Below are positions 27,390 to 49,456 of a stretch of DNA of 64,000 nucleotides, in pieces (position 1 is the first letter of the stretch; each line of letters opens with the position of its first letter). The DNA comes from Candidatus Magasanikbacteria bacterium RIFCSPHIGHO2_02_FULL_48_18 (GTDB lineage: Bacteria > Patescibacteriota > Patescibacteriia > Magasanikbacterales > UBA922), in assembly GCA_001784285.1 (NCBI GenBank), contig MFQC01000003.1:144159-208158 (forward strand), read 5' to 3'. A model generated the notes under the pieces. The model was given only the letters and a program-made list of their open reading frames with translations. It ran no database searches and was not told the DNA's origin. The translations under genes and the position numbers were made by a program.

Positions 27390-27992
27390 TTGTATGGTAT
27401 GGATGAGCAACTTAAAAAACAACCTTTTGATTCTCAGGAAGAAACGCCCCTCGAAAAATCCCCCAACCCAGAACAGGCGCCAAGGCACGGCGACAGGGCG
27501 GCGTCTCCAGAATTTTCTCCTGTGCCAGAACAGCCGGTGACTCCGCCGCGTTTCGAACAGGGAGAAAAAGCAGGAGAATTAACCAAAGAATCCGCAGAAA
27601 TGGAAACGCGAGAAGAGGGATTTCTTGATGACGCGATTCAGGGACTGAAACAAAAATTACTGAAAAAAAAGCCAAAACCAGTCATTCGACCCCAACACAA
27701 AGACGATCTCACCATCCAAATTGAACATATCATGGAAGAAGGATTGGAAGATGCATATAAAGAACTCACCCCGGTCCAGCGGCAAGAATTTAAAATGAAA
27801 GGAGAAGAAACCGCCACAAAAATCCGTCAGCTTCTTCGGGCCACTCACATCAAGGTGCAAAAAATCTTCCAGCTTCTCTTGCAATGGCTCAAGATGCTTC
27901 CGGGTATTAGCCGATATTTTCTCGAGCAAGAAGCAAAAATAAAACTTGATAAGATGCTTTCGTTCCATGAATATAAAAAACCGAAACAGTAA
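27390..27992 (+). CDS. Hypothetical protein with an acidic, Pro-rich, probably disordered N-terminal half and a helical C-terminal half. It sits immediately upstream of the T4CP-like ATPase.
   Basis: 200-aa ORF. Low-complexity PEQ-rich N-terminus. No known motif. Confidence 0.4.
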   Translation: MYGMDEQLKKQPFDSQEETPLEKSPNPEQAPRHGDRAASPEFSPVPEQPVTPPRFEQGEKAGELTKESAEMETREEGFLDDAIQGLKQKLLKKKPKPVIRPQHKDDLTIQIEHIMEEGLEDAYKELTPVQRQEFKMKGEETATKIRQLLRATHIKVQKIFQLLLQWLKMLPGISRYFLEQEAKIKLDKMLSFHEYKKPKQ

Positions 27993-28024: not shown

Positions 28025-30544
28025 ATGTTGGATAATTCCTTCTTTTTTGGCGCAATTGTCATTGTTTTAATCAGTGCCATGGTTGTAAGCACCATTTTTT
28101 TATTTCGCGCCTCCACCCGTTTCTTTTCTCGGTCTTCCAAAGCATTCCATCGGACGGTGCTTCTTATTTCTGTGCCAAAAGAACGAAAATCGGAAGGCCA
28201 AGGCAACACGCAAGGAATGCAGGACGATCGCCTGGAATATGTCAAAGAGGAAATCGGCATTACCGAAACATTCTTTTCTGCGATTGGCGGACTCAAAGCC
28301 CAGCGAGGAATAAAAAAATGGTTTCAGGGGAGAGACGACCATTTTTCGTATGAAATCGTTGCCCATGATGGTCTAATTTATTTTTACATTGACACGCCAA
28401 AAAAAATGCGACAGCTCATTGAACAGCAAATCCACGCGCAATACCCATACGCCCAAATTGACGAAATGATTGATTATAACATTTTTTCAGAAAAAAGTTC
28501 GATTGTCGGGGCGTATTTGGTCGCAGTCAAAAAATCATTTTTTCCATTCAAAACATATAAAAAAATGGAGTCCGACCCGCTGTCCGCCATATTGAATGTC
28601 TTGGCGCGCATTCGCGAAGGCAACAGCTCTGCCGCGGTTCAATGCATTGTGCGGAGCGCAAACAAAAAATGGCGCCGCAGGGGCATCCGCGTCGTGCGAG
28701 AAGTAAAAAAAGGAAAAAAATTTGAAAACATCGCAAATCAATCAACTTTCTCTCAGGTATTCCATGCGGCATGGAAAGGCATAGCAGACACCGCAAAAAA
28801 ACCGGAAGAAAGAAAAAGAGATGAGGCATACACGCTCTCTGCCATGGAAGAAGACATGCTGAAAGGCATTGAGGAAAAACTCAGCAAAGCCGGCCTTGAT
28901 ATGGTTATTCGAATCGTCAGCATTTCAGACGAAGAGCAGACCGCAAAAATGAATTTGGATAATCTGCTCAGTGCGTTCAGCCAATACAATCTGTACCGAT
29001 ATGGCAACACATTCAATGCCATGGTACCGAGGCGCCAAACCACGCTGATCCAAGATTTTATTTATCGCAGTTTCACCGAAAACAAGTCATTCGTCGTCAA
29101 TACCGAAGAAATGGCTTCCTTCTGGCACCTGCCGCTCCATTCCACAGAAGCCCCAAATATCAAATGGCTGACCGGGCGAAAAGCGCCGCCGCCGCCCAAC
29201 CTCCCCAAGGAAGGACTCCTCTTGGGATGTATCAACTACCGAGGAACAAAAACGGACGTGCGGCTGAAATTGAACGATCGGCGGCGGCATCTGTATATTA
29301 TTGGAAAATCCGGAAGCGGCAAATCCGTGACCATTGCCAACCTCGCCATTCAAGACATCCACGCCGGACATGGCGTTTGTATCGTGGATCCGCACGGCGA
29401 TCTCGTGGAAGAAACATTGCGCCATATTCCAAAACATCGCGCTGATGACGTTATTGTGTTCAACCCCTCAGACATGGAGCGCCCGATTGGACTGAATATG
29501 CTTGAAGCCAGAAATGAAGACGAGAAGGATTTTGCGGTGCAAGAAATGATTTCAATTTTTTATAAATTGTTTCCCCCGGAAATGATCGGGCCGATGTTTG
29601 AGCACAACATGCGCAACGTGATGCTGACCCTCATGTCCGATATTCATGACCCCGGAACCGTCATTGATATTCCCCGGATGTTTACCGACGATCAGTATGT
29701 AAAAGTCTATCTCAAAAAATTAAAAGACCCGATCGTGCGCGCGTTTTGGGAAAAGGAAATGGCGCAGACCAGCGATTTTCACAAATCGGAAATGCTCGGT
29801 TATCTCATTTCAAAAGTGGGACGATTTGTCGAAAATGAAATGATGCGAAACATCATGGGGCAACAGCGGTCAGGATTCAACTTTCGCGACATCATGGACA
29901 CGCAAAAAATTCTCCTTGTCAATCTGGCCAAAGGAAGGGTGGGAGAAATGAACGCAAAACTCTTAGGACTGATTGTGGTTGCAAAATTGCAAATGGCGGC
30001 CATGGGCCGGGCAGAGCTCTTGGAAGAAGAACGAAAAGATTTTTTTCTGTATATTGATGAGTTCCAAAATTTCATTACCGATTCTATTTCCATTATCCTC
30101 TCCGAGGCCAGAAAGTATAAATTGGATTTGATTATCGCGCATCAATATATGGGCCAGTTGACGGATGACAAAGGCAAAGCAACGGTTCGCGATTCGGTAT
30201 TGGGAAACGTGGGAACCATGATGATCGGGCGAATCGGTCCGGAAGACGCTGATATACTGGCCAAAGAATTTGCGCCAACGTTCGGCTCGTATGATCTCCT
30301 CAATACCCCGCAATATTCCTTTTATACAAAAATGCTGATAGACAATGAAGCATCCAGGCCGTTTCTTATGGGCGCATACCCCCCCAAACAAGGAAACCAA
30401 CCCCTGGCAAACGCTATCAAACAATTGTCCCGTCTCAAATATGGGCGGGATCGCACCATTGTGGAAGCGGAAATTTTGGAGCGAACCAAACTCGGGTCCG
30501 CCTCAAGCGCAAGCAAAACCGATATGATTGAAGCATCGCTGTAG
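28025..30544 (+). CDS. Membrane-anchored P-loop ATPase of the FtsK/HerA/VirD4-TraD (T4SS coupling-protein-like, DUF87-like) superfamily, carrying a ~370-aa N-terminal domain of unknown function.
   Basis: N-terminal TM. Walker A YIIGKSGSGKS followed by VCIVDPHGDL (the DPxGD/E motif typical of TraD/TrwB/FtsK-type ATPases). Walker B FFLYIDEFQNF. 839 aa. Confidence 0.7.
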   Translation: MLDNSFFFGAIVIVLISAMVVSTIFLFRASTRFFSRSSKAFHRTVLLISVPKERKSEGQGNTQGMQDDRLEYVKEEIGITETFFSAIGGLKAQRGIKKWFQGRDDHFSYEIVAHDGLIYFYIDTPKKMRQLIEQQIHAQYPYAQIDEMIDYNIFSEKSSIVGAYLVAVKKSFFPFKTYKKMESDPLSAILNVLARIREGNSSAAVQCIVRSANKKWRRRGIRVVREVKKGKKFENIANQSTFSQVFHAAWKGIADTAKKPEERKRDEAYTLSAMEEDMLKGIEEKLSKAGLDMVIRIVSISDEEQTAKMNLDNLLSAFSQYNLYRYGNTFNAMVPRRQTTLIQDFIYRSFTENKSFVVNTEEMASFWHLPLHSTEAPNIKWLTGRKAPPPPNLPKEGLLLGCINYRGTKTDVRLKLNDRRRHLYIIGKSGSGKSVTIANLAIQDIHAGHGVCIVDPHGDLVEETLRHIPKHRADDVIVFNPSDMERPIGLNMLEARNEDEKDFAVQEMISIFYKLFPPEMIGPMFEHNMRNVMLTLMSDIHDPGTVIDIPRMFTDDQYVKVYLKKLKDPIVRAFWEKEMAQTSDFHKSEMLGYLISKVGRFVENEMMRNIMGQQRSGFNFRDIMDTQKILLVNLAKGRVGEMNAKLLGLIVVAKLQMAAMGRAELLEEERKDFFLYIDEFQNFITDSISIILSEARKYKLDLIIAHQYMGQLTDDKGKATVRDSVLGNVGTMMIGRIGPEDADILAKEFAPTFGSYDLLNTPQYSFYTKMLIDNEASRPFLMGAYPPKQGNQPLANAIKQLSRLKYGRDRTIVEAEILERTKLGSASSASKTDMIEASL

Positions 30545-30665: not shown

Positions 30666-31346
30666 ATGGATCAACTTGCAAATATTTTATCCGAAAAAAT
30701 AACGGAATTTGATATACCCGACCGATTCGTTCTCAGCCCTGTCAAAAACCCCCAAATCACCGCGTATCCACCCCGCAATGAATCATTGCCCGCAGGTGAA
30801 CTCCCATCACAAAAAATTCCTGAGACACCAGAATCACACCATATTCATCAGCTCAAAAAAACCATTGACGCGCTCAAGACAGAGCTCGATGCTTTGTTGC
30901 ATATTTTTCAGCATGAATTCCACGTTCCTCTTTCGCGAAACAATCTTGGTCCGGTCCCTCTTGCCGCTCCAGGGACGGTTCTTGAGGGGGTGTTCAACGG
31001 GTACCAGATGATTGCCGCAAACGGCGCATGCTACCCCATCCCCCCAAACTACGCCAGCAAATCAAAATTGGTCGAAGGCGACCTCATGAAGCTGACCATC
31101 ACGAGAAATGGAGGGCTCATGTACAAACAAATTCAACCCATTGAACGCACGCGAATCAGCGGCATTTTGACAAAAGATTCATCCACAAACGACTGGATGG
31201 TCGGGGCCGAACAAAAAATATACCGCGTCCTCACCGCTTCAGTCACATTTTACAAAGGACAAACGGGCGACACAGCCGGTATTTTGGTTCCTCTTGATGG
31301 ACAAAGTGATTGGGCGGCAGTCGACTATATTGTCCATAGCGAATAG
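30666..31346 (+). CDS. Hypothetical 226-aa protein.
   Basis: ORF in an operon-like position after the ATPase. No recognisable motif. Confidence 0.4.
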   Translation: MDQLANILSEKITEFDIPDRFVLSPVKNPQITAYPPRNESLPAGELPSQKIPETPESHHIHQLKKTIDALKTELDALLHIFQHEFHVPLSRNNLGPVPLAAPGTVLEGVFNGYQMIAANGACYPIPPNYASKSKLVEGDLMKLTITRNGGLMYKQIQPIERTRISGILTKDSSTNDWMVGAEQKIYRVLTASVTFYKGQTGDTAGILVPLDGQSDWAAVDYIVHSE

Positions 31347-35209: not shown

Positions 35210-36091
35210 ATGCCAGCACAACGCATTGATGGAAAATTGATTGCCCAAACCATCGAAAAAACCATAGCAACAAAAGTCAAAAGATTGCGGCGCAGAGGAA
35301 TCACACCATCTCTCGCAGTTCTTTTGGTTGGAAAACACAAGGCGTCCGAAACGTACGTGCGAAAAAAAGCTCAGGCGGCAAAACGGGTCGGCATTGATTT
35401 TACCCTCCATCGCCTGCCCGGCAATACATCGAGAAAAAAAATCATTGAGACACTGCGCACCATCCAGAAAGATCCCCGTCTCTCCGGGCTCATCGTTCAG
35501 CTTCCCCTTCCCGAACCGTTATACACCCGGGATGTGCTCAATAGCATTGATCCCACCGTGGATGTTGACTGTCTGAGCGACGAAAATTTTGGCAAATTGG
35601 TCGCAGGGTATCCGCGCGTCACGCCGCCCACGCCCGGCGCGATTTTTGCAATCTTGAAGCATTTGCAGATTTCTTTGAGAGGAAAACAAGTCACCATCGT
35701 CGGTACCGGCCTTTTGGTCGGCCGGCCGCTTGCAACCATGCTTATGAACGCGGAAGCCACAGTGACCACGTGCAATATATATACAAAAAACCTCGCGGAC
35801 GTATCCAAAAAAGCGGACATTCTCATATCCGCTGTTGGAAAAAAAGGATTGATTACCGGCTCAATGGTAAAAAAAGGAGCCATCGTCATTGACGCCGGCG
35901 TTGATTTTGTCAACAATGACCTCTTTGGCGACGTGGATCAAAAAACAGTGATACAAAAAGCATCGTTTCTCACGCCAACGCCGGGAGGGGTCGGCCCGCT
36001 GACGGTTTCTCATCTCTTGTCGAATGTGGTCCTGTGCGCCGAAAGACGATTCTTGCCCACGGCAAAAACATCAAGGAAAAACCTCTATTGA
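35210..36091 (+). CDS. folD: Bifunctional methylenetetrahydrofolate dehydrogenase/cyclohydrolase.
   Basis: IDGKLIA...LAVLLVGKHKASETYVRKK...GLIVQLPLP...VTPPTPGAI...TIVGTGLLVGRPLA...TPGGVGPLT are FolD hallmarks. Confidence 0.85.
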   Translation: MPAQRIDGKLIAQTIEKTIATKVKRLRRRGITPSLAVLLVGKHKASETYVRKKAQAAKRVGIDFTLHRLPGNTSRKKIIETLRTIQKDPRLSGLIVQLPLPEPLYTRDVLNSIDPTVDVDCLSDENFGKLVAGYPRVTPPTPGAIFAILKHLQISLRGKQVTIVGTGLLVGRPLATMLMNAEATVTTCNIYTKNLADVSKKADILISAVGKKGLITGSMVKKGAIVIDAGVDFVNNDLFGDVDQKTVIQKASFLTPTPGGVGPLTVSHLLSNVVLCAERRFLPTAKTSRKNLY

Positions 36092-37056
36092 AGCGGAGCC
36101 ACACGCTCCAACACGGACTCCAACTCAGAAAAATTGTTTACCTGCATGAGACAAGCCCGTATCTCTTTAATGTGCGGGATCTCGCATCCGAGACGCGACG
36201 CCTTAAAATACCACGCAAGGTGTTTCCGAAATGTTATGAGATTTCCTCTTCCGTAGTGTACAAGATGCAGGCGCGCATGTTCACGAATAATCCGCATTTT
36301 CTCCTTGAGATCAACCTGTTGGGCAAGCGGATGTGCCAGAGAAAAAAACCATGGATTCCCGAGCGCGCCCCGGGCAATCAATACTCCATCCGCATGCGTC
36401 TGGTCAAGCGCCTCCCACACCTCGGATGGCTCATGAATATCGCCATTTGCCAACAACGGAACCGTGGCAATTTTTTTTGCTTCTTGAATACGATCCCAAT
36501 CACTCACGCCTGCGTATCCCTGGACTTTGGTTCTGCCATGGAGAGTAATAAGATCCGCGCCCGCCTCTTCAATAATCGGAATGAACGTTCGAAACTCGTC
36601 CGGATCCGACCAGCCGAGACGAATTTTTACCGAAAGAGGTGTCGCCCCGATTGCTCGCTTCACTTCTCGAATAATGCCAGCGGCTCGGCTCGGCTCTTTC
36701 ATAAGAGCACAGCCATTAAAATTGCTGGTAATTTTATATACCGGACATCCCATGTTGATATCAATGCCCTCCGGCCCCGCATGCCGCATCACAATTTCTG
36801 CCGCGTTTGCCATGGTAAGAGGATCAGCGCCGAATAGTTGCTGGACAATGGGCCGCTCGCTCTCGACAAAATCGGTCATCCCCATGGTTTTTGCATTTTC
36901 GCGCACGATGGCTTCACTCGAGACCATTTCTCGAAAGACCACATCTGCCCCGCCAATCATGCGGACAATTTGACAAAACGGCGAATCGGTCATATCCGCC
37001 ATGGGAGAAAGCGCAAAAATAGTTTTTTTCTTGGCAAGAATATCCTGTATCCACAT
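36085..37056 (-). CDS. dus: tRNA-dihydrouridine synthase.
   Basis: LSPMADMTDSPFCQIVR...DINMGCP. TIM-barrel Dus family. 323 aa. Confidence 0.8.
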   Translation of the reverse strand: MWIQDILAKKKTIFALSPMADMTDSPFCQIVRMIGGADVVFREMVSSEAIVRENAKTMGMTDFVESERPIVQQLFGADPLTMANAAEIVMRHAGPEGIDINMGCPVYKITSNFNGCALMKEPSRAAGIIREVKRAIGATPLSVKIRLGWSDPDEFRTFIPIIEEAGADLITLHGRTKVQGYAGVSDWDRIQEAKKIATVPLLANGDIHEPSEVWEALDQTHADGVLIARGALGNPWFFSLAHPLAQQVDLKEKMRIIREHARLHLVHYGRGNLITFRKHLAWYFKASRLGCEIPHIKEIRACLMQVNNFSELESVLERVAPLQ

Positions 37057-37131
37057 AGAAGAATGACTCTATCAAAAACCGAATAAAAAAACAAGACACG
37101 CGGGTGTCTTTTTACGAAAACTCACGCACTA

Positions 37132-38601
37132 TCATCCCAAGTTGGCATCATCAACATACCGCACATCGCCCGAATCGGTCACATATTTTTTCTTCCCTTT
37201 CTCGTCCGGCGTGTTCGGGGATTCGCTTTCCGGCATGGCCGGTTGTGGCGGGGCAGATGTTCCCGGCACTACTGAAGATATATCCAAAGGCAATCCCGCC
37301 GGCGGCTCGACATGCTTGCCCTCTGCTTTTTGGAGAAGCGGTGTTTTGACATGGGACATTGGAAAATGCCAAATAGTTGCAAGTTCTTCAATGTTCAAGA
37401 CAAACGGTTCCTTTCCCCTTTCAATCGCCCGCTCCTGGTACGCATGCATCAAGACAGAGCGGCGATAATTTTTTCGCGCTTCCGCAAACATATACTCGAC
37501 CGACGTCATATATTTTGGCAGAAGCATATTGCAATAGGGCACATTGAATTGATTGAGCGCCCCTGTGATTGAATTGATCGCCTTATTTGGTTTGTAGGCC
37601 TCTTTTTTTGCCACATAAATCATTCGAATTTTTGTTCGAAATCCAATTTTGCTGATCTTGTCTTCCATTGCTTCAACAATTTTTCTCTCTCCCGGCGTGA
37701 GATAGAGAATTTGATTTTTTGGTTCATGCGAATCTTTTGACGCACCGGCATCTTCTCCCGGCCCGGCGCCTCCGCTCAGCTGGGCGTTGATTTCAGCGAA
37801 GCCTTTGCTGATTTCTCTTGTGAGAGTATTATCAAATATCCAAGTTAAAAAACTCTTTCCTGATTCTTTTTTTTCTCCAACCATTTCCTTAATTTTTTCT
37901 ATAGCCTCATCTTTCCAAAGTTTTTCCGCGATCGGCGCAATAATAATCTGAAACCAGACTTGTTCCCCAGGCCCGATACGCGTAAAACTTTCGAGGAGCG
38001 TCCCCATTGGATCCTTCAACACCGTATCTTTGGAAATGCTATGTTCAAAATCGCGGTAGAGCCGCAATGGAAATGCCCAGTGCTTTGTTAAAACATAATC
38101 CGCGGCCCAAATATCGTGCGTATCGTTTGGATATTTGGTTGGAATTCCGGAGACATAATCTTCAACCTCGATAATCTCCGCTTCAGGATATTGGGCGTAC
38201 ACGGCCGCCTCAAGCACATCGCGATATTTTACCCGGACACGAACTAAAAATTGAATGTAGCCTTCAATGCTAATGATTTCAAAGCTATAGAATTCTTCAT
38301 TATACCCCCTTCGAAACATGGTCGTAATGCTCGGCGGCTCCCAAATGCTGAAAATATGCGAAAATAGCTGTTCCACCGCTTTTGGCGTCTGGATATTCAA
38401 GGCAGGAATATCAATCGCCAAAAGGACCCATTCCCAGGTGGAGGTATATTTTTCTCGTTTGTATATTTTTTCAATTTCCAATCCCGCATAAATCAGCAGA
38501 TATGCAACAACCGTCCATCCCCCCAGCATAAGCAAATCCAAAATAACCCGATACAAGGGCTGTAAAAACAGGTTGGATAAAAAAAGGATGGCCGCATCCA
38601 T
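37132..38601 (-). CDS. Membrane protein paralogous to the N-terminal ~370-aa domain of the 28025-30544 ATPase, but with no ATPase domain. It has a low-complexity C-terminal tail.
   Basis: Alignable blocks: QYPEAEIIEVEDY vs QYPYAQIDEMIDY; LTPGERKIVEAMEDKISKIGFRTKIRMIYV vs LSAMEEDMLKGIEEKLSKAGLDMVIRIVSI; EELATIWHFPMSHVKTP...PPAGLP vs EEMASFWHLPLHSTEAP...PPPNLP. Confidence 0.6.
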   Translation of the reverse strand: MDAAILFLSNLFLQPLYRVILDLLMLGGWTVVAYLLIYAGLEIEKIYKREKYTSTWEWVLLAIDIPALNIQTPKAVEQLFSHIFSIWEPPSITTMFRRGYNEEFYSFEIISIEGYIQFLVRVRVKYRDVLEAAVYAQYPEAEIIEVEDYVSGIPTKYPNDTHDIWAADYVLTKHWAFPLRLYRDFEHSISKDTVLKDPMGTLLESFTRIGPGEQVWFQIIIAPIAEKLWKDEAIEKIKEMVGEKKESGKSFLTWIFDNTLTREISKGFAEINAQLSGGAGPGEDAGASKDSHEPKNQILYLTPGERKIVEAMEDKISKIGFRTKIRMIYVAKKEAYKPNKAINSITGALNQFNVPYCNMLLPKYMTSVEYMFAEARKNYRRSVLMHAYQERAIERGKEPFVLNIEELATIWHFPMSHVKTPLLQKAEGKHVEPPAGLPLDISSVVPGTSAPPQPAMPESESPNTPDEKGKKKYVTDSGDVRYVDDANLG

Positions 38602-38603
38602 AC

Positions 38604-38840
38604 CTACACCTCAAGTAACACGTAGATAATGATATAGATAATGATGACGGAAAATCCGGTCCACCACCATCCGCTTCCGGCAGATGCATACCCGACCCAA
38701 TAAGCAAGAAAGGTCACGAGCATGCCGAGAAAAGAAATAAAGTGCCGAACAAATTTTTCATTCATAGAGAGGATCCTTAAGAACTCCGAAAACCAGTATA
38801 TCATGGAACAAAAAAACCCGGAATAGCCGGGTTTTTGCAT
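38604..38840 (-). CDS. Small (53-78 aa) two-TM membrane protein, translationally coupled to the downstream paralog gene.
   Basis: Hydrophobic ...FLGMLVTFLAYWVGYASAGSGWWWTGFSVIIIYIIIYVLL. Its stop overlaps the start of the 37132-38601 gene and it lies 8 nt after the secF stop. Confidence 0.4.
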   Translation of the reverse strand: MQKPGYSGFFCSMIYWFSEFLRILSMNEKFVRHFISFLGMLVTFLAYWVGYASAGSGWWWTGFSVIIIYIIIYVLLEV

Positions 38841-38848: not shown

Positions 38849-39919
38849 TTATATGCTCGGCTGTTTGCGTTTCCGACGGCGTTCTTCTTCCCAGGATACC
38901 AAAATCGGACTGGCAATAAAGATGGAAGAATACGTTCCAAAAAAAATACCAATAATCAACGCAAGCGAAAAATAACGAATGGATTCGCCGCCAAAAAAAT
39001 ACATTGCAACAAGCACCAAGAGCGTGGTAAACGATGTATTGATCGAACGCAGGATGGTTTGGTTCACTCCGCGATTGACCACATCAAGAAAATTACTGCC
39101 GCCGCTTTTTATAAGGTTCTCTCGCACGCGGTCAAACACCACAATCGTGTCATTGACAGAATATCCAAGAATGGTCAACAGTGCAACGATAAAGGGGATA
39201 TCCACCTCAACGCCATACCATTTGCCCAAAAGGGCAAACACACCCATGGTGATAAGCACATCATGCGCGAGCGCAATAACGGCCGCGACGCCGTATTTCC
39301 ATGATTCGACCGGTTTGGATACCCGACGAAATGAATAGGCAATAAACAGCACAATAAGGAGCAGAACGCCAATGCCCGCTTTCCAAGATCGAGAAATCAA
39401 TTCCTGGCTGATCGATGGCCCAATCGTCTCCACCCGCTCCTCGAGCACGCGCTCTACAGGAGCCGTTTGCGCGGTTTCATCCTGTCCTTCTTGAGATACT
39501 GCGCCTTCTTCTCCCGAGAGGGATTCTGCCTCGACAAGAACAGGCTCGCCGTTTTCTCCGGTTGCCTCGAGCAAGAATGACCCGTTCTCAGCATCCTGCG
39601 CGGCCGCTGTTTCAAATGAACTCCGCAACCGAGCCAGAATTTGCTGATGTTCTTCTTCATTGATAAAGCGAGTTCGAAGAATATATCCATCTTCATTGGT
39701 GGGTTGGACCACGACTGACCCAAGACTCAAGTCGGCAAGAGCGGTCTCTACCTTGTCAGGAGACGGCCTTTGTCCGGTAAAACGAACTTCCAGCAATGAC
39801 CCGCCGGTAAAATCAATCCCGGGTTTGAGTCCAAACAGAACAAGAGACACAATACTCCCTAAAACGAGCAGGCCAGATATCATGAAAGAAACATTTCTTT
39901 TTTGAATGATAGAAATCAT
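38849..39919 (-). CDS. secF: Protein-export membrane protein SecF. The start was chosen at the ATG that overlaps the secD stop by 4 nt (ATGA).
   Basis: ISGLLVLGSIVSLVLFGLKPGIDFTGGSLLEVRF... and C-terminal SecD/F TM bundle ...NDTIVVFDRVREN.... Confidence 0.85.
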   Translation of the reverse strand: MISIIQKRNVSFMISGLLVLGSIVSLVLFGLKPGIDFTGGSLLEVRFTGQRPSPDKVETALADLSLGSVVVQPTNEDGYILRTRFINEEEHQQILARLRSSFETAAAQDAENGSFLLEATGENGEPVLVEAESLSGEEGAVSQEGQDETAQTAPVERVLEERVETIGPSISQELISRSWKAGIGVLLLIVLFIAYSFRRVSKPVESWKYGVAAVIALAHDVLITMGVFALLGKWYGVEVDIPFIVALLTILGYSVNDTIVVFDRVRENLIKSGGSNFLDVVNRGVNQTILRSINTSFTTLLVLVAMYFFGGESIRYFSLALIIGIFFGTYSSIFIASPILVSWEEERRRKRKQPSI

Positions 39920-42006
39920 ATGTCTTTGTTCTTTGCTCCGAGAAAAAACCATGTGCCCGCGCGAAACCATGGCGCCACAAAACGCAACATCACGCGGGTG
40001 ACGGTAATTGCGGAAAACATGCTCGTGAGAATGCCAATAAAGAGCGTAATGGCAAACCCTTGAACAAATCCGGAGCCAAACCACATCAAAACAAGACACG
40101 TGATAAGCGTTGAAAGATTTCCATCCCGAATGGACGGCCATGCTCGCAAAAACCCTTCTTCAATAGCCGCCTTGAGACTTTTTCCATCTTGGAGTTCTTC
40201 TTTGAGCCGTTCAAAAATCAAAACATTTGCGTCAACCGCCATGCCAATTGATAGAATAAAGCCGCCAATGCCGGCCAAGGTCAGCGTGACCCCCACAAAT
40301 TTAAAGAGCGCCAAGGTAAAAAATACATACACGCACAGTGCAATAACAGACAACAATCCCGGAAATCGATAATAGAGCACCATAAACAGCATCACCAAAA
40401 GAACGCCAATAATTCCTGCCATAAGACTCTTTTGGAGCGATTCAGCGCCAAGGGTCGCCCCAACCGATTGTTGCGAAATGAGCTCTACCGGCACGGGCAA
40501 GGCGCCCGCATTCAGCCGCTGAGAGAGCACACGCGCGTCTTCCAGGGTAAAATTACCGGTGATCACGGCCTGGCCGCTCGTGATGGATTGTTGCACCCGA
40601 GGAATGCTGATGGGTTCCCCATCGAGAAAAATCGCCACCGGCTTTCCCACATTTCTTTTTGTGATGTCTGCAAAGAGTGTTGTTCCCTCCTCGTCAAATT
40701 GGAGCGATACTTGAATTTGTCCGGTTTGCTGGTCGGAAACAATTTCCGCTCGATCCAATTGTTTGCCCGATAATCCTGTGTTCATCCAAGGATCGGGCGG
40801 CGGAAGAATGTTTTCCGGGGCAAGAGTCCGAATCAAAATGCGGGACAACTCATATTCTTTGGTTGGGGCCTCATTTGTTTTATAAATAATATGATACCCA
40901 AATTCGGTCAAAATGGGTCCTATAATTTCTCCGACTTTTGCCTGAAACGCGGCATCCTCAAACGCCGGCGTAAAAAGTCCTTTTCCAAAAACGCCAAGCG
41001 CGCCCCCAGTCTCTTCAGCGCCGGGTTCTGTGGAAAATTCTTTTGCCAAATCTGAAAAATTATCCGCGTTTGCCTGTTCAAACAGTTCTTTCGCTTTTTG
41101 TTCGGCTTCTTCTTTGGTGTATTTGGGATCGGCGCATTTTTCAGCGCCGAGAAAACAAATCAAAACATGACTGGCCTCCACTTTTGTTTCTCCATCACGC
41201 GTTTTTCCCAGCCTGACGATATTGTATCCTTCGGGTGATTCCACCACTGTCTTAGGAATCTCGCCTTCTTGCAATTTGGCGAGAACCTCGACAATACCTT
41301 CGTACTGCGGAGTATCCCCGATAAATCCCACATATCCATTGTTGTTTTTTGATTGCTGATCTTCGGAAGATTCCTTGGCAAGCGCGTCAAATGATTCACC
41401 GGATTGTATTTTGAACAAAAGATCGGACGCGCGTTTTTTGGCGTCGCTGTTATATTCGATAATTTGCTGTTGTTCTTCTCCGGTCAATTCACGCGGAGGT
41501 ACTGTGTTTTCTTCTTTAAATTCCAAAATAGGCGTTTCTCCAATCATGGCAATCGCGGCCTGTACATCGGTAACCCCCGGCAGTTCCACCACCAAGCGAT
41601 GCTCGTCGCCAACTTTGGTGGTTTGAACATTAGATTCGCCAATGCCAAATGCATTCACGCGGCGTTCAATAACATCACGAACGCCTTCCAGCGCGTCTCC
41701 GCGGTCCTCATCGGCAAATTGATTGACATCCGCTTTGTAAATGAGATGCGCTCCCCCTTGAAGATCTAGCCCCAAAGAAAATGGCTTTCCTGAAATCGAC
41801 GGAATGGCAAGGGGTAACATACGATTAGCCGCTTGAATTTGTGTATTCACGAATTCCGGAAAATCAAAAGAAAACGCGACGCCGAGCAACGCAAAAATGC
41901 CAAGAATTCCCCATCGAATTTTCGTCCGTACGTGTGATTGTCCGCTGTGCTTGGTCATACCGATGAATAACGGCAGTAGTGTAGCGTTTTGGGTCAATCG
42001 CGTCAA
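39916..42006 (-). CDS. secD: Protein-export membrane protein SecD carrying a ~210-aa insertion with two tandem parvulin (PpiC-type) PPIase-like domains.
   Basis: SecD motifs LGLDLQGGAHLIY..., ...GALPVPVELI... and the C-terminal TM bundle ...VDANVLIFERLKEE.... Inserted parvulin 2 ASHVLICF...GGALGVFGKGLFTPAFEDAAF...FGYHIIYK. Parvulin 1 lacks the His pair (IIEY / GYNIVRL). Confidence 0.85.
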   Translation of the reverse strand: MTRLTQNATLLPLFIGMTKHSGQSHVRTKIRWGILGIFALLGVAFSFDFPEFVNTQIQAANRMLPLAIPSISGKPFSLGLDLQGGAHLIYKADVNQFADEDRGDALEGVRDVIERRVNAFGIGESNVQTTKVGDEHRLVVELPGVTDVQAAIAMIGETPILEFKEENTVPPRELTGEEQQQIIEYNSDAKKRASDLLFKIQSGESFDALAKESSEDQQSKNNNGYVGFIGDTPQYEGIVEVLAKLQEGEIPKTVVESPEGYNIVRLGKTRDGETKVEASHVLICFLGAEKCADPKYTKEEAEQKAKELFEQANADNFSDLAKEFSTEPGAEETGGALGVFGKGLFTPAFEDAAFQAKVGEIIGPILTEFGYHIIYKTNEAPTKEYELSRILIRTLAPENILPPPDPWMNTGLSGKQLDRAEIVSDQQTGQIQVSLQFDEEGTTLFADITKRNVGKPVAIFLDGEPISIPRVQQSITSGQAVITGNFTLEDARVLSQRLNAGALPVPVELISQQSVGATLGAESLQKSLMAGIIGVLLVMLFMVLYYRFPGLLSVIALCVYVFFTLALFKFVGVTLTLAGIGGFILSIGMAVDANVLIFERLKEELQDGKSLKAAIEEGFLRAWPSIRDGNLSTLITCLVLMWFGSGFVQGFAITLFIGILTSMFSAITVTRVMLRFVAPWFRAGTWFFLGAKNKDI

Positions 42007-42032: not shown

Positions 42033-44861
42033 TTACGCGCCGTGGCAACGTTTGTATTTGCGGCCGGATCCACAGGGACATGGATCGTTGCGACCGATTT
42101 TTTTTCCTTCCTCATCTCGCGGCTTATGGTCTATCCGGACTGATTCTGGCGCCTCAGATTTTTTTGCGCCTTGAAGCGTCATCTTATCGGTCGCCATAAT
42201 AGTAGGGGCGAGCTGAATCCCTGCCCCAATTTTGAAAAATGAATATACCACTTCTTTTTGGATATTTGCCAGCAATTCGTGAAACAGATGATAGGACTCT
42301 TTTTTGTATTCGACCAAAGGGTCCCGCTGGCCATAGCCGCGCAAACCGATACCCGTCCGAAGATAATCGATGGAAATAAGATGCTCAACCCAAAGCGTAT
42401 CAATCGCGCGCAACAGAATATTTTTTTCAATCGCCCGCATGTGTTCTTGTGCGTGGACAGTGTCTTCCACAGAACGGAAAACAGCCTCTTCCACCTTTTC
42501 ATACTCTTGCCGCGCTTTTTGAAACAAATAGTCCACCATCGCGTCACGCGCTTTCACATTATCAAATTTTTCTCCGCGCTCAGCCTTGATATCGTGAATC
42601 GCGCGTTCGTCTTCCGGTTCAAGCGGAAAAATTGTTTTCATGGTTTCAATGATTTCTTGGATGTTCCACCCGTTTTTTTCTGACACGTCGCTTGCCGATG
42701 TTTCTGATACATTCACTTCATTGGTATGAAAACTGACCACAAATTCAATCTCTTCTTCAATCATGTCTAGAATCATGTCTTTTAAATGAGCGTACGCCTT
42801 TTGGTCGTCTTCCACCGATCCGGCACCCGCAGGCGCACTCACAGAGGCACCGTCTTGAGACCCCTGTTCTTTGAGGGCAACCTCTAAAATTTGTCTCCGC
42901 TTGCCATAAATAACCGCGCGGTGGCGATTGAGAACATCATCATATTGGAGGACGTGTTTTCGCGAATCAAAATGAAATCCCTCCACTTTTTTTTGTGCGC
43001 TTTCAAGCATGCGGCTGATCATTTTTTGTTCAATGGGGACATCTTCCGGAAGCTGAAACCGATTCATAACTGCCTGAAGCCGATCGCCGGCAAAAATGCG
43101 CATCAGATCGTCTTGAGTCGACACAAAAAATTGTGTTTCCCCGGGATCTCCCTGGCGCGCCGACCGGCCGCGAAGCTGATTGTCAATACGGCGAGACTCG
43201 TGTCTCTCCGTTCCAAGCACGAATAAGCCCCCGGCGGCAAGAACCTCAGCCTCTTCCGCTTGATCAACCGGATTGCCCCCAAGCTTGATATCCACTCCGC
43301 GTCCTGCCATGTTGGTTGCAAGGGTGACACTGCCCGGCCGCCCCGCTTGAGCGATAATTTCTCCTTCTCGTTCATGATTTTTTGCATTGAGCACCTGATG
43401 CACAATCCCCTCTCCGGTCAAAAATAAGCTCAGCTCTTCGTTTTTTTCCACCGAAATCGTTCCAACCAAGACCGGCTGTCCCTTTGCCTGACACTCACGA
43501 ATTTTTTCGGCCACGGCTCGATATTTTGCTTTATTATGTTTATAAATACGATCGGAATGGTCAATACGATGATCAAGCTTGTTGGTCGGAATAACAAATA
43601 CCTCCAACCCATAAATTTTGAAAAACTCTTCTTCTTCTGTCTTTGCCGTACCCGTCATGCCGGAAAGTTTTCGATACATGCGGAATAAGTTCTGAAAGGT
43701 GATCGTCGCAAGGGTCTGGCTTTCTCGTTGAATCGCGACGCCTTCCTTGGCCTCAATGGCTTGGTGGAGTCCTTCGGAATATCGTCTCCCGGGCATTTTT
43801 CTTCCGGTAAATTCGTCAATAATAATGACCTCGTCATTGTCAACGACGTATTCTTTATCCCGCTTAAATAGATATTCGGCCTTAAGCGCCTGTTCAATAT
43901 GATGGAGCATGCGGATGCCGCCCTCGACATAGAGATTCTCTACTCCCAGCCACTGTTCAAACTGAACAACACCATGATCGGTCAGAGTCGCGGATCGCAT
44001 TTTTTCGTCAATATTGTAATCTTCATTTTCTTTCAGCTGTTTGACCAGCTGAGCAAAGCGATAATACTGCTCGGTTGCTTCTTCGGCCGGCGAGGAAATA
44101 ATGAGCGGCGTTCGCGCTTCATCAACGAGAATAGAGTCAATTTCATCAATAATCGCATAATGCATCTCGCTCCCCGGACGCATCACCATTTGGGAAAAAT
44201 CCTGAACCATGTTGTCGCGCAAATAATCAAACCCAAATTCATTGTTGGTCCCGTAAGTAATATCCGCGCGATAGGCTTCTTGACGCGTACACGGACGCAA
44301 ATACTCATCTTCAATCTTGAAACTTTCTTTTTGGTCGGGAGCAAGCGGGCCGACGTCTGATGTCTTGTCATAGAGATATGTCACCCGCTGATTTTGAATA
44401 ATCCCGACGCTCATCCCTAAAAAATCATAAATTTTCCCCATCCATACCGCATCTCGTTTTGCGAGGTAGTCATTGACCGTCACGACGTGCACTCCTTTTC
44501 CTTCAAGCGCATTCAAATACACCGGCAACGTCGCAACCAATGTTTTTCCTTCGCCGGTTCTCATCTCGGCAATTTTTCCTTGATGCAATGCTACGCCTCC
44601 GACGAGTTGAACGTCAAAATGGCGCATTCCGGTGGTGCGTTTTGACGCTTCGCGAACGGCCGCAAACGCCTCCGGGAGAATGTGGTCGAGTGTCTCCCCT
44701 TTGGCCACTCTTTCTTTGAATTCCCCTGTTTTTGCGCGAAGCTGGTCGTCGGTCAACGCGGCAAATGGTGATTCAAACCCATTAATCATTTCAACCATCG
44801 GCTGTAATTTTTTCAACATTTTTTTATTGGGATCTCCGGTAAAAATGTAGTGCCAATTCAT
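42033..44861 (-). CDS. secA: Preprotein translocase ATPase SecA.
   Basis: 942 aa. ...MRHFDVQLVGG...GEGKTLVATLP... C-terminal Zn finger CPCGSGRKYKRCHG. Confidence 0.9.
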   Translation of the reverse strand: MNWHYIFTGDPNKKMLKKLQPMVEMINGFESPFAALTDDQLRAKTGEFKERVAKGETLDHILPEAFAAVREASKRTTGMRHFDVQLVGGVALHQGKIAEMRTGEGKTLVATLPVYLNALEGKGVHVVTVNDYLAKRDAVWMGKIYDFLGMSVGIIQNQRVTYLYDKTSDVGPLAPDQKESFKIEDEYLRPCTRQEAYRADITYGTNNEFGFDYLRDNMVQDFSQMVMRPGSEMHYAIIDEIDSILVDEARTPLIISSPAEEATEQYYRFAQLVKQLKENEDYNIDEKMRSATLTDHGVVQFEQWLGVENLYVEGGIRMLHHIEQALKAEYLFKRDKEYVVDNDEVIIIDEFTGRKMPGRRYSEGLHQAIEAKEGVAIQRESQTLATITFQNLFRMYRKLSGMTGTAKTEEEEFFKIYGLEVFVIPTNKLDHRIDHSDRIYKHNKAKYRAVAEKIRECQAKGQPVLVGTISVEKNEELSLFLTGEGIVHQVLNAKNHEREGEIIAQAGRPGSVTLATNMAGRGVDIKLGGNPVDQAEEAEVLAAGGLFVLGTERHESRRIDNQLRGRSARQGDPGETQFFVSTQDDLMRIFAGDRLQAVMNRFQLPEDVPIEQKMISRMLESAQKKVEGFHFDSRKHVLQYDDVLNRHRAVIYGKRRQILEVALKEQGSQDGASVSAPAGAGSVEDDQKAYAHLKDMILDMIEEEIEFVVSFHTNEVNVSETSASDVSEKNGWNIQEIIETMKTIFPLEPEDERAIHDIKAERGEKFDNVKARDAMVDYLFQKARQEYEKVEEAVFRSVEDTVHAQEHMRAIEKNILLRAIDTLWVEHLISIDYLRTGIGLRGYGQRDPLVEYKKESYHLFHELLANIQKEVVYSFFKIGAGIQLAPTIMATDKMTLQGAKKSEAPESVRIDHKPRDEEGKKIGRNDPCPCGSGRKYKRCHGA

Positions 44862-48040: not shown

Positions 48041-48148
48041 AGCACTTTCGCGTTTGATTGCCTTCGAGCGGGTTCTGTCTCCGCAACGGAGACAGCCCTG
48101 AGCCGATACAGGCGAAGAAAGCGAGAAGGCTATCAACGCGAAAGTGCT
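48041..48148 (+). promoter_or_regulatory. Structured ~110-nt leader or MITE-like element bounded by a perfect 14-bp inverted repeat, immediately upstream of the RBS of the GC-rich gene.
   Basis: agcactttcgcgtt (48041-48054) and aacgcgaaagtgct (48135-48148) are perfectly complementary. Internal 9-bp hairpin ctgtctccg-caa-cggagacag (48075-48095). GGAGG RBS at 48154-48158. Confidence 0.4.
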
Positions 48149-48164
48149 ACAGAGGAGGAAAAAA

Positions 48165-49436
48165 ATGTGGAAAAATTTTGCGGCTCTCGAAGATCATCGC
48201 GCCCACGCGGACTCGCCGCTAGGCCACATCCCGATCCCTGGTCGGGAGTGGTACGGTATGCGCGGTCTCATGACCAATGCCCCCCTCATGATCGCGCCCG
48301 GCGGCATTGAGTGGGAACTCATCGAGGCCCTTCGAGGCCGGGGAATCGGCCCCCGCGAGGTCGTCGAGGTGGATGACCTAGTCCTCGACTGCGCGCGGGG
48401 CCCTGTCGCTGACAAAATCCGCCGCTGTGACGGAATCCGGCCGTTCTGGTTCGGCCGGACCGAAGAGGAGCTCTTCAATGAGCTCGGCATGCCGGCCGCG
48501 ATCACAGCCAACCAGATGAGGGATCTCAACTGCAAGGCGATCTTTCGGATGATCGCGAAGCAACAGGGCTTCGGTCATCTGGTACCCCTGAATGGGGTCG
48601 GTACGACCGAGGCACACGCGCTTGAGACGTTCGAGCGCATCCGGGCCATGCTCGGCCACGACGGCCACCCGATTCCCGACGCGGCCATCCTCAAACAAAC
48701 TGGACTCCTGTCCGGCGCCGGGATGGAGGTCCACACAACGACGGATGGTGTCAAGGGCTACTGCCGGCGCCAGCTCGACGGCAAGCCCATGATCATCGAG
48801 GCGGCCTACCTGCGGCACATGGCCGCCTCGGCACACTGGAATCTGTCCGCCAGTGGCTGGAGCAGGGCAGGCACAACAGTCAACTTCATCTCCGGCGGGG
48901 TATGCCACGAGGGCAACCTGTACGCCTCGCATGCACAGCCAATCCCCGGACTCTTGCTCAAGGACATGGCCACCATGTACTGGATCGGGGAGCACTGGAT
49001 TCGGGAATGGTGGAAGATGGGTTTCCGTGAGATGGCCGTGGGTATTGACTTCATCAAGGTCCGCGGCTTGTGCGGCAGGGTTCGGTGGTACGCCATTGAA
49101 CCGAACATCTTCCGCCCGCCGGCGCCACGGTACGGATTCGCGCTCGGCGAGCAGATCGCACCACGGCTCGGTGGACGCTGGGCCATTGCCCAGTCGAACG
49201 TCTACCCGGCTCCGGGAGCCGCGGACAACTTCCGCGAACTGGCGCGGCTCCTCAGGGGGCTCCTGTTCGACGGCAAGAGCGGCGCCGTCCCCACGCTCGT
49301 CGAGCTCTTGCCCCATGGCAAGTTCCAGGCGTTCTGTGTCGCCGAGAACGGCTGGAAGGCAATGCGGCTCCTCACTCGGGTCAAGGAGCGCGTCGGGGAC
49401 ACAAAGTCGGTCGCGATCCCTGATCTCGACCGCTAG
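48165..49436 (+). CDS. Compositionally foreign (GC-rich) gene encoding a ~424-aa protein with ATP-grasp-like C-terminal motifs. Function unknown.
   Basis: Strong G/C third-position codon bias, unlike every other gene in the window. GGAGG-6nt-ATG start. Motifs GTTVNFISGG and AVGIDFIKVRGLCGRVRWYAIEPNIFRPP resemble the ATP-grasp R-x-N...GG and GxD...E-x-N motifs. The antisense 373-aa ORF is a GC-rich shadow. Confidence 0.6.
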   Translation: MWKNFAALEDHRAHADSPLGHIPIPGREWYGMRGLMTNAPLMIAPGGIEWELIEALRGRGIGPREVVEVDDLVLDCARGPVADKIRRCDGIRPFWFGRTEEELFNELGMPAAITANQMRDLNCKAIFRMIAKQQGFGHLVPLNGVGTTEAHALETFERIRAMLGHDGHPIPDAAILKQTGLLSGAGMEVHTTTDGVKGYCRRQLDGKPMIIEAAYLRHMAASAHWNLSASGWSRAGTTVNFISGGVCHEGNLYASHAQPIPGLLLKDMATMYWIGEHWIREWWKMGFREMAVGIDFIKVRGLCGRVRWYAIEPNIFRPPAPRYGFALGEQIAPRLGGRWAIAQSNVYPAPGAADNFRELARLLRGLLFDGKSGAVPTLVELLPHGKFQAFCVAENGWKAMRLLTRVKERVGDTKSVAIPDLDR

Positions 49437-49456
49437 GAGGATAAAAGGAGGAAAAC

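What the first reader, a model, noticed from the sequence alone, without database searches (positions are those of the whole stretch)
37132..38840. ATPase-less paralog of the T4CP N-terminal domain plus a small two-TM partner, co-transcribed at the end of the secA-secD-secF operon
The 489-aa protein shares several alignable blocks with residues about 100-400 of the 839-aa ATPase but ends in a low-complexity Pro/Ser/Glu tail instead of a P-loop. It is translationally coupled: stop/start overlap with a small two-TM protein, which itself begins 8 nt after the secF stop. This suggests a three-part membrane unit (small TM protein, domain paralog, and the ATPase acting in trans) functionally tied to Sec translocation. 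I know of no described system with this arrangement.
Basis: seen in the sequence. Interest (0 to 1): 0.7.

Follow-up and report, generated by a model that had tools for sequence, protein, structure and literature searches.

The report
Membrane half of a split secretion-type ATPase
The 489-residue protein is the membrane-anchored, motor-less half of a two-gene ATPase that is widespread in Patescibacteria and folds like the front end of the type IV secretion ATPase VirB4; together with a 53-residue membrane partner it forms its own small operon beside, not inside, the Sec operon.

Summary
The paralogy is real. The 489-aa protein aligns with residues 80-394 of the 839-aa ATPase (BLASTP 1e-26; HHalign 7e-29), has no Walker A motif, and ends in a disordered tail. 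Both carry Pfam DUF8128.

Several details of the finding are wrong:
- The small gene encodes 53 aa (start 38765), not 78.
- It starts 83 nt after the secF stop. That gap holds an intrinsic terminator and an extended -10 promoter, both conserved in related genomes.
- There is no stop/start overlap (TAG, 2 nt, ATG).

Outside Magasanikbacteria, standalone DUF8128 genes are followed directly by a second, anchorless T4CP-like ATPase ("ATPase2") in 51 of 58 loci. The pair is therefore a split copy of the fused 839-aa protein. In Magasanikbacteria ATPase2 is encoded elsewhere, and the small protein is specific to this lineage.

Linkage to secDF is frequent (21 of 32 loci) but looser than linkage to ATPase2, and nothing supports co-transcription with sec.

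The likely partner is ATPase2, not the 839-aa ATPase. The substrate is unknown; DNA is my best guess. This is a new variant of a known kind.

The parts
38810..38836 (-). Intrinsic terminator ending the secD-secF transcript (AAAAACCCGG-CUAUU-CCGGGUUUUUUU)
   Evidence: Sequence read. RNA fold -13 kcal/mol, z -3.5, 0 of 200 shuffles fold as well. An equivalent hairpin plus T-run is found after secF in at least 49 of 68 related loci.
38795..38803 (-). Extended -10 promoter element TGATATACT for the small-gene/DUF8128 unit
   Evidence: The motif TGnTA[TC]A[AC]T lies within 130 nt upstream of the small-gene ATG in 58 of 71 distinct loci, against 29 of 1420 random windows.
38604..38765 (-). Gene for a 53-aa protein with two hydrophobic (TM) segments (MNEKFVRHF...GWWW...LLEV). 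True start is ATG 38765, with Shine-Dalgarno AAGGA at 38778-38774
   Evidence: 71 distinct orthologues of 53-60 aa share M[ST][DE]xF[IL]RH...GY..G..GWW...Y...KL. Hydrophobic segments at residues 9-27 and 32-53. No relative within +-10 kb in four non-Magasanikbacteria loci.
37132..38601 (-). Gene for the 489-aa DUF8128 protein (one TM helix, VirB4-NTD-like domain, disordered tail)
   Evidence: Precomputed Pfam PF26449 on the identical gene in L083. 1905 homologues. 2511 clusters at 50% identity.
38479..38550 (-). Single N-terminal TM helix (aa 18-41), followed by a K/R-rich stretch (cytoplasmic side)
   Evidence: Hydropathy scan and flanking charges. Long helix 16-53 in the AF2 model.
37357..38439 (-). 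DUF8128 alpha/beta domain (aa ~55-415), structurally like the VirB4/TrwK N-terminal domain
37288..37308 (-). EPPAGLP motif (aa 432-438) at the end of the domain; equivalent to PPPPNLP (388-394) of the fused ATPase, at the junction with its ATPase domain
   Evidence: E432, P433, P434 and L437 are invariant in 43 sequences. P390 is invariant and P389/P394 nearly invariant in the joint alignment. Aligned to each other.
37135..37287 (-). Disordered P/S/D/E-rich tail ending in a conserved C-terminal motif (Y.TDSG...Y..D..[FL]G)
   Evidence: pLDDT <50. Composition. D476 invariant, G478 and G489 nearly invariant.
37087..37110 (-). Terminator-like hairpin plus T-run after the DUF8128 gene, before dus
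   Evidence: Terminator scan and sequence.
28025..30544 (+). Fused paralogue: TM + DUF8128 + T4CP-type ATPase (839 aa)
38849..41958 (-). secF (38849-39883) and secD (39916-41958, with a parvulin PPIase insert): conserved upstream neighbours, not part of the unit
   Evidence: Pfam. Gene calls on the identical contig. Synteny.

Best explanation
The small gene and the 489-aa gene form an independent bicistronic operon.

The 489-aa protein is the membrane-anchored, ATPase-less subunit of a split VirB4-NTD/T4CP-type ATPase. It has one TM helix, then a cytoplasmic domain with the fold of the VirB4 N-terminal domain (Pfam DUF8128), then a flexible tail ending in a short conserved motif.

Its cognate motor is most likely ATPase2. 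This is a soluble paralogue of the ATPase half of the 839-aa protein and has neither an anchor nor a DUF8128 domain. In most related Patescibacteria ATPase2 is encoded directly downstream of standalone DUF8128. In Magasanikbacteria it has been moved elsewhere (next to dnaG-rpoD in the examples seen).

Inferred mechanism, by analogy with VirB4: the DUF8128 subunit recruits an ATPase2 hexamer to the membrane and organises it there. VirB4 N-terminal domains embed in the membrane, join protomers and bind the small 2-TM protein VirB3. The 53-aa 2-TM protein sits in the VirB3 position and probably packs against the TM helix.

The 839-aa protein is the fused version of the same machine. Both versions coexist in these genomes.

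Shown here: homology, fold, gene fission/fusion, transcription signals and synteny. Inferred: the physical interaction and the substrate. My best guess for the substrate is DNA, handled in a housekeeping process unrelated to conjugation.
For: - Paralogy: BLASTP 1e-26; HHalign 7e-29.
- Rosetta-stone evidence: DUF8128 followed by ATPase2 in 8 of 8 non-Magasanikbacteria contexts, with gaps of 1-9 nt in 7 and 68 nt in one, and in 51 of 58 loci anchored on ATPase2.
- ATPase2 starts exactly where the ATPase domain of the fused protein starts and is 44-46% identical to it.
- ATPase2 is present in Magasanikbacteria: L011, L018, L056, L058 and L091-L093. L093 lies on a 506,046-bp contig, the same length as the longest contig listed for P0012 (standalone DUF8128) and P0189 (fused ATPase).
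- Own promoter and flanking terminators.
- Purifying selection: 43 sequences, mean column identity 56%, many invariant columns.
- DNA hint: ATPase2 carries a CxxC...CxxC zinc finger (zf_Tbcl_2) in a Lys-rich tail. A Sigma70_r4/HARE-HTH DNA-binding protein is encoded directly upstream in 36 of 43 loci. The closest solved relatives by sequence are TrwB, HerA and DotL.
- Precedents: VirB3/VirB4 contacts and TraI/TraJ (PMC12857230); the CedB/CedD DNA importers with TM + VirB4-like NTD + ATPase (bioRxiv 10.1101/2024.09.27.615246).
Against: - ATPase2 is not in the 64-kb window. Its presence in this particular genome is unverified.
- No interaction evidence exists; no complex prediction was possible with these tools.
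- In exactly the lineage where ATPase2 is unlinked, a new small partner appears and the C-terminal motif changes from PPxNLP[IFV] to Y.TDSG...FG. The partner or role may therefore have shifted in Magasanikbacteria.
- Foldseek TM-scores are low (about 0.33) and sequence identity to TrwK is 7-9%. No VirB4 sequence model matches.
- The DNA-substrate idea rests only on domain flavour and neighbours.
Confidence: 0.65

Rival explanations
1. One reading: the small protein, the 489-aa paralogue and the 839-aa ATPase form one three-part unit, with the 839-aa protein supplying ATPase activity in trans. For example, mixed N-terminal-domain dimers could form, as in the VirB4 hexamer of dimers, or the paralogues could cooperate like CedB/CedD.
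For: - The paralogy is real.
- VirB4 protomers pair through their N-terminal domains (PMC12857230).
- The paralogous CedB and CedD are both required for DNA import (bioRxiv 10.1101/2024.09.27.615246).
- The two genes lie 6.6 kb apart in the window. The fused ATPase, or its neighbour p226 at a locus edge, lies within 10 kb of standalone DUF8128 in six other Magasanikbacteria loci: L025, L028, L035, L066, L069, L080.
- Both versions coexist in every genome where this could be checked.
Against: - The 839-aa protein already has its own TM helix and DUF8128 domain.
- It has its own conserved flanking genes, p200 and p226.
- The standalone DUF8128 gene is instead glued to ATPase2 in 51 of 58 loci.
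- The two genes are on opposite strands with housekeeping genes between them.
Confidence: 0.15
2. The pair works with SecDF: it acts as an accessory of the Sec holotranslocon, or as a membrane-protein or pilin extraction device that uses a VirB4-like dislocase activity. This would explain the conserved position downstream of secD-secF.
For: - secF lies within 350 nt upstream of the small gene in about 62 of 69 Magasanikbacteria loci.
- secF lies upstream of DUF8128 in 21 of 32 other Patescibacteria loci.
- This linkage outlasts the secA-secD linkage.
Against: - A terminator and a separate promoter lie between secF and the pair.
- In other lineages an unrelated DNA-binding-type gene sits in between (36 of 43 loci).
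- The linkage is lost in 11 of 32 loci and in L004, L011, L029, L031 and L088.
- Wider synteny is also conserved in the region (mnmA-type tRNA methyltransferase, alaS), so inherited gene order is a sufficient explanation.
Confidence: 0.1
3. The 489-aa protein acts without any ATPase, as a stand-alone membrane scaffold (TrsD-like or EccE-like), or it is a decaying remnant of a gene duplication.
For: - No ATPase gene is adjacent in Magasanikbacteria.
- N-terminal-domain-only proteins of unknown role exist (TrsD, PMC12102498).
- The second-best fold match is EccE, a scaffold subunit of ESX systems.
Against: - Decay is excluded: the ORF is intact in more than 100 genomes with many invariant residues.
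- Adjacency to ATPase2 elsewhere argues for an ATPase partner.
Confidence: 0.1

Closest known systems
VirB3-VirB4 of type IV secretion systems (e.g. TrwM-TrwK of plasmid R388)
   Same: The DUF8128 domain has the fold of the VirB4 N-terminal domain. A small 2-TM protein is encoded immediately upstream, as virB3 is relative to virB4. VirB4 N-terminal domains are membrane-embedded and bind VirB3 (PMC12857230).
   Different: - No ATPase domain in the same polypeptide.
- No match to VirB4 or VirB3 sequence models.
- The associated ATPases are T4CP-like by sequence.
- No VirB6, VirB8 or pilin genes nearby.
- The small protein (53 aa) is half the size of VirB3 and lacks its C-terminal helix.
TrsD (pGO1, MPF-FATA): a protein homologous only to the N-terminal part of VirB4
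   Same: An N-terminal-domain-only protein existing beside a full ATPase; its function is also unknown (PMC12102498).
   Different: TrsD homologues in Patescibacteria are mostly encoded next to virB4 (PMC12102498). This gene sits in a housekeeping region next to secDF. A TrsD profile was not available to test.
Canonical T4CPs (TrwB/VirD4), and split T4CPs such as pIP501 TraJ anchored by the small 2-TM protein TraI
   Same: - The ATPase halves (fused protein and ATPase2) match TrwB_AAD_bind and TraG-D_C.
- They have a helical insert like the all-alpha domain.
- A TM-less T4CP tethered by a separate membrane protein has a precedent (PMC12857230).
   Different: Canonical T4CPs have a bare 2-TM anchor and no VirB4-like N-terminal domain. 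No relaxase or mating-pair genes are present here. Patescibacterial T4CP homologues are mostly far from virB4, and exaptation has been suggested (PMC12102498).
Archaeal Ced DNA-import ATPases CedB/CedD
   Same: - The architecture is TM + VirB4-NTD-like domain + HerA/VirB4-type ATPase.
- Two paralogues coexist and cooperate.
- The genes are chromosomal and non-conjugative (bioRxiv 10.1101/2024.09.27.615246).
- The NCBIfam CedD model touches the window ATPase (5.8e-9, far below its cut-off).
   Different: Only a short P-loop stretch matches by sequence. No CedA/VirB6-like channel gene was seen. No split N-terminal-domain-only subunit is described for Ced.
Bacillus phage proteins of PHROG 5156 (phage G gp156, SP-10 BS_SP10_203)
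   Same: Full-length relatives of the fused 839-aa protein: phrog_5156 E 1.5e-86; phage G gp156 aligned over residues 81-787, E 1e-49. The standalone protein also matches the N-terminal part of the profile at 3.6e-13.
   Different: These are phage-encoded, fused only, and of unknown function. In phage G the gene follows a VirB4-like ATPase gene.

Membership tests
Pfam DUF8128 (PF26449) | Match to the family HMM | tested here: met
   Precomputed PF26449 hit on the identical 489-aa gene product in L083 and on 99%-identical P0001. The local Pfam-A copy returned no hit, apparently because it lacks this model.
VirB4 (T4SS ATPase) | N-terminal domain fold | tested here: met
VirB4 (T4SS ATPase) | C-terminal Walker A/B ATPase domain in the same protein | tested here: not met
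   No Walker A motif. The protein ends in a disordered tail.
VirB4 (T4SS ATPase) | Match to VirB4 sequence models (CagE_TrbE_VirB, AAA_10) or to solved VirB4 sequences | tested here: not met
   No Pfam or NCBIfam family at E<=0.1. The profile search of PDB sequences found nothing at E<=10.
VirB4 (T4SS ATPase) | Encoded in a T4SS cluster with VirB3/VirB6/VirB8 | tested here: not met
   All annotated neighbours in the 64-kb window are housekeeping genes.
Type IV coupling protein (VirD4/TrwB): claim for the 489-aa protein | Nucleotide-binding domain plus all-alpha domain | tested here: not met
Type IV coupling protein (VirD4/TrwB): claim that DUF8128 is 'the T4CP N-terminal domain' | N-terminal region is a 2-TM membrane anchor only | tested here: not met
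   Both proteins have one predicted TM helix followed by a folded domain of about 360 residues. The description of canonical T4CPs rests on established knowledge and PMC12857230.
TrsD-like N-terminal-domain-only proteins | Homology to the VirB4 N-terminal part without an ATPase domain | tested here: met
   Structural match only.
TrsD-like N-terminal-domain-only proteins | Match to the TrsD profile; location next to virB4 | tested here: inconclusive
   The TrsD profile is not in the available libraries (not tested). Location next to virB4 is not met in the window.
VirB3 (claim for the 53-aa protein) | Small protein with two TM helices encoded directly upstream of the VirB4(-like) gene | tested here: met
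   Two hydrophobic segments. The gene ends 2 nt before the DUF8128 start. Adjacent in every locus in which it was detected (76 loci including the window).
VirB3 (claim for the 53-aa protein) | VirB3 sequence model; 10-15 kDa size with a C-terminal helix | tested here: not met
   No Pfam hit. The protein is 53 aa (about 6 kDa) and ends 4 residues after the second TM segment.
secA-secD-secF operon | Co-transcription with secF | tested here: not met
   A terminator and an extended -10 promoter lie between secF and the small gene, conserved across loci. This is sequence prediction only; no RNA data were available.

The most novel reading that the evidence does not exclude
Many Patescibacteria carry a conserved, chromosomal machine that is independent of their type IV secretion system. 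It is built from VirB4-N-terminal-domain/T4CP hybrid ATPases present in two coexisting forms. One form is fused: the 839-aa type, with its p200 and p226 neighbours. The other is split: a DUF8128 anchor plus ATPase2, usually with a Sigma70_r4/HARE-HTH protein.

On this reading the machine is a previously unrecognised housekeeping membrane translocase, for example for DNA uptake, export or segregation in these reduced cells. It would account for the roughly two 'orphan T4CPs' per genome reported for the phylum. Magasanikbacteria would have remodelled the split form, with the anchor unlinked from the motor and paired with a new 53-aa membrane protein beside SecDF.
Probability: 0.3. Interest if true: 0.75.

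Novelty: new variant of a known kind. Interest (0 to 1): 0.55.

Why it matters
Patescibacteria genomes hold about two VirD4-like 'coupling proteins' each (5,713 in 2,918 genomes). Nearly all are far from virB4, and their role is an open question (PMC12102498).

This locus shows that, at least in Magasanikbacteria and the related lineages sampled here, these ATPases are not ordinary coupling proteins. They carry, or are partnered with, a VirB4-type N-terminal domain. They exist as a fused and a split paralogue. They sit in core-genome neighbourhoods rather than in mobile elements.

That gives DUF8128 a structural identity. It also predicts a specific protein-protein interaction (DUF8128 anchor with ATPase2) and a concrete set of genes to test in the few culturable members of the phylum.

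Tried and rejected
- Pfam-A (local copy), NCBIfam and PADLOC gave no family for the 489-aa or the small protein.
- A profile search of PDB sequences found nothing at E<=10.
- tblastn of the 489-aa protein against PLSDB plasmids and INPHARED phages found nothing. A scan of IMG/VR viral contigs found no relative. There is no sign that the standalone gene is carried on a mobile element.
- Literature searches for DUF8128/PF26449 returned nothing. Searches on FtsK in Patescibacteria and on SecD-parvulin fusions gave nothing useful.
- The afdb50 fold library was unavailable.
- An HMM of the small protein found no relative near DUF8128 in four other lineages.
- HHalign of the DUF8128 profile against the single SP-10 phage protein was weak (probability 9%). 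The PHROG profile match (3.6e-13) is the better evidence there.
- Rejected: the 78-aa reading of the small ORF; a stop/start overlap; a compositional artefact; a pseudogene.
- Not done: confirming ATPase2 in this exact genome, because only 64 kb are visible.
Full report
**Source and layout**

The window comes from a Candidatus Magasanikbacteria (Patescibacteria/CPR) genome. The 839-aa ATPase is 100% identical to a MAG protein of that group, and the region lies on a 290-kb groundwater metagenome contig.

On the minus strand the gene order is: hpf, secA (42033-44861), secD (39916-41958), secF (38849-39883), a small ORF, the 489-aa ORF (37132-38601), then dus (36085-37056). The 839-aa ATPase lies at 28025-30544 on the plus strand. 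Between it and dus sit a 226-aa protein without any Pfam match, a membrane protein, a SWIB protein, dnaX and folD. Nothing in the 64 kb looks like a type IV secretion cluster.

**Checking the observation**

The paralogy is real.
- BLASTP of the 489-aa protein against the ATPase gives 25% identity over 363 columns (76-438 vs 80-394), E=1e-26.
- Profile-profile comparison gives 99.8% probability, E=7e-29.
- Precomputed Pfam labels put PF26449 (DUF8128) on both proteins. All 120 listed ATPase homologues carry DUF8128 followed by TrwB_AAD_bind, usually with DUF87, T4SS-DNA_transf and/or TraG-D_C.
- The 489-aa protein has no Walker A motif; the ATPase has GKSGSGKS at residue 427.

The small protein is real but shorter than reported. 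71 distinct orthologues are 53-60 aa long and begin at the position of the internal ATG at 38765.

Three details of the finding fail.
- The small gene begins 83 nt, not 8 nt, after the secF stop.
- There is no stop/start overlap: TAG, 2 nt, then ATG.
- The 83-nt gap contains a strong terminator hairpin with a U-run (-13 kcal/mol, z -3.5), followed by the extended -10 element TGATATACT.

Both signals are conserved. A hairpin plus T-run follows secF in at least 49 of 68 related loci. The promoter motif precedes the small gene in 58 of 71 loci, against 2% of random windows. A second terminator follows the 489-aa gene. The pair is therefore its own bicistronic unit.

**What the domain is**

An AlphaFold2 model of the 489-aa protein (mean pLDDT 76.7; the core mostly 85-97) shows an N-terminal TM helix, an alpha/beta domain and a disordered tail.
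- In Foldseek the top 13 hits are all TrwK chains, including a 457-residue chain.

By sequence, the ATPase half is closest to coupling proteins (TrwB, DotL) and to HerA. It has a helical insert at residues 498-625 resembling the T4CP all-alpha domain. The 839-aa protein is thus a hybrid: one TM helix, a VirB4-type N-terminal domain, and a T4CP-type motor. Each of the two large proteins has one predicted TM helix followed by basic residues, which places DUF8128 in the cytoplasm.

**The missing motor**

Outside Magasanikbacteria (Uhrbacteria and other Patescibacteria, 29-38% identity), the standalone DUF8128 gene is followed by a 569-778-aa gene. The gap is 1-9 nt in seven of the eight contexts examined and 68 nt in the eighth (L087).
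- That gene carries TrwB_AAD_bind, often DUF87 and TraG-D_C, and in seven of the eight cases a C-terminal zinc finger (zf_Tbcl_2).
- It has no TM helix and no DUF8128 domain.
- This 'ATPase2' begins exactly where the ATPase domain of the fused protein begins and is 44-46% identical to it.

A metagenome scan anchored on ATPase2 confirms the pattern. DUF8128 is directly upstream in 51 of 58 loci with enough sequence. Standalone DUF8128 plus ATPase2 is therefore a split copy of the fused protein, which is a classical Rosetta-stone argument for interaction.

ATPase2 also exists in Magasanikbacteria, but unlinked.
- It lies 8-10 kb away in L011, L018, L056 and L058.
- It lies behind dnaG-rpoD in L092 and L093. 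A third Magasanikbacteria-type locus, L091, shows no recognised neighbour.
- L093 is on a 506,046-bp contig, the same length as the longest contig listed for a standalone DUF8128 (P0012) and a fused ATPase (P0189). This is consistent with one genome holding all three genes.
- ATPase2 is not within this 64-kb window.

The 53-aa protein was found only in Magasanikbacteria. In the other lineages the gene upstream of DUF8128 is usually a Sigma70_r4/HARE-HTH protein (36 of 43 loci).

**The Sec link**

In Magasanikbacteria, secF lies within about 350 nt of the small gene in roughly 62 of 69 loci. Elsewhere, secD-secF lies upstream of DUF8128 in 21 of 32 loci and in 7 of the 8 inspected contexts.

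This linkage is real and outlasts the secA-secD linkage. It is nevertheless weaker than the DUF8128-ATPase2 linkage. It is interrupted by terminators, promoters and, in other lineages, an unrelated gene. It also sits in a region of generally conserved gene order. It does not show a functional tie.

**Mechanism**

In the R388 system, VirB4 N-terminal domains embed in the membrane, join protomers into dimers and contact the small 2-TM protein VirB3. In pIP501 a small 2-TM protein is thought to anchor a TM-less coupling protein (PMC12857230). In Sulfolobales, CedB and CedD (TM + VirB4-like N-terminal domain + ATPase) are paralogues that are both needed for DNA import (bioRxiv 10.1101/2024.09.27.615246).

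By analogy, I propose that the 489-aa protein anchors and organises an ATPase2 hexamer at the membrane, with the 53-aa protein packing against its TM helix in the VirB3 position.

Several short motifs are candidates for docking:
- WHFP...PPxxLP at the end of DUF8128, conserved in both paralogues;
- the C-terminal motifs after the disordered tails: PPxNLP[IFV] in other lineages and Y.TDSG...FG in Magasanikbacteria.

The substrate is unknown. The zinc finger on ATPase2, the HARE-HTH neighbour and the T4CP/HerA kinship point weakly to DNA.

**Comparison with what is known, and novelty**

DUF8128 is already a Pfam family, so the domain and its two architectures are on record. I found no publication on it. 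A 2025 survey counted about two VirD4-like proteins per Patescibacteria genome, mostly far from virB4, and left their role open (PMC12102498). The structural assignment to the VirB4 N-terminal domain, the fused/split pair and the Magasanikbacteria remodelling appear to be undescribed.

The 489-aa protein fails membership of VirB4, T4CP and VirB3 on defining features, but it plausibly works like a VirB4 N-terminal domain with a VirB3-like partner. I rate it a new variant of a known kind, of moderate interest.

**Side result**

The fused architecture also occurs in Bacillus phages.
- PHROG 5156 matches the 839-aa protein at 1.5e-86 and the 489-aa protein at 3.6e-13.
- Phage G gp156 aligns over residues 81-787 of the 839-aa protein (E 1e-49).
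- gp156 follows a VirB4-like ATPase gene, gp155.

Noticed in passing
window 39916-41958 (-); also L001, L084-L087, L089, L090: SecD carries one or two parvulin-type PPIase (Rotamase) domains inserted before the P1 head. The insert is conserved in every related Patescibacteria locus inspected. It looks like a PrsA-like foldase fused to SecD. A literature search found no description.
   Followed up: partly
L085 8794-9897, L086, L087, L088, L089, L090; 36 of 43 loci among L091-L170: A protein of about 370 aa with Sigma70_r4 and HARE-HTH domains is encoded directly upstream of standalone DUF8128 in non-Magasanikbacteria lineages. It may be a DNA-binding component or a regulator of the DUF8128-ATPase2 pair.
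   Followed up: partly
L172 (Bacillus phage G) 3240-7382; L171 (phage SP-10) 5857-8388: Full-length relatives of the fused DUF8128-ATPase occur in Bacillus phages (PHROG 5156). In phage G the gene (gp156) directly follows a VirB4-like ATPase gene (gp155). In SP-10 it sits among replication and recombination genes.
   Followed up: partly
window 27390-27992 (+) and 30666-31346 (+): The fused ATPase is flanked by two proteins with no Pfam match (200 aa, with an acidic disordered N-terminus; and 226 aa). The trio is conserved in L025, L066 and L069, and a 209-aa gene follows the fused ATPase in L085.
   Followed up: no
L084 11453-13789, L085 11518-13266, L086 11594-13375, L058 18705-20492; representatives P0303-P0350: After long low-complexity tails, short motifs are conserved at the extreme C-termini...PG[DEQ][IV][IV][KR][FL] in ATPase2 (PDQIVRFG in L058), and PPxNLP[IFV] in non-Magasanikbacteria DUF8128 proteins. 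The latter repeats the PPxxLP motif at the domain end. ATPase2 from L084-L086 also has a CxxC...CxxC zinc finger.
   Followed up: no
window 48144-49499: A stretch of 57% G+C lies in a genome of about 46% G+C, between uvrC and uvrA. It has long ORFs on both strands (430 aa on +, 373 aa on -). Neither has a Pfam match and there is no Rfam match. The + strand product looks protein-like. It may be acquired DNA.
   Followed up: partly
window 19638-22682 (-): A type IV pilus gene set (prepilin peptidase, a pilin with N_methyl/T2SSG domains, a response regulator, PilM) lies about 5 kb upstream of the fused ATPase.
   Followed up: no
window 38795-38803 and homologous positions in L003-L082: Promoters of the TGnTATAMT extended -10 type, with no obvious -35 element, appear to be the rule upstream of this operon in Magasanikbacteria. 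A weaker match to the same pattern (TGATAGAGT) precedes dus.
   Followed up: partly
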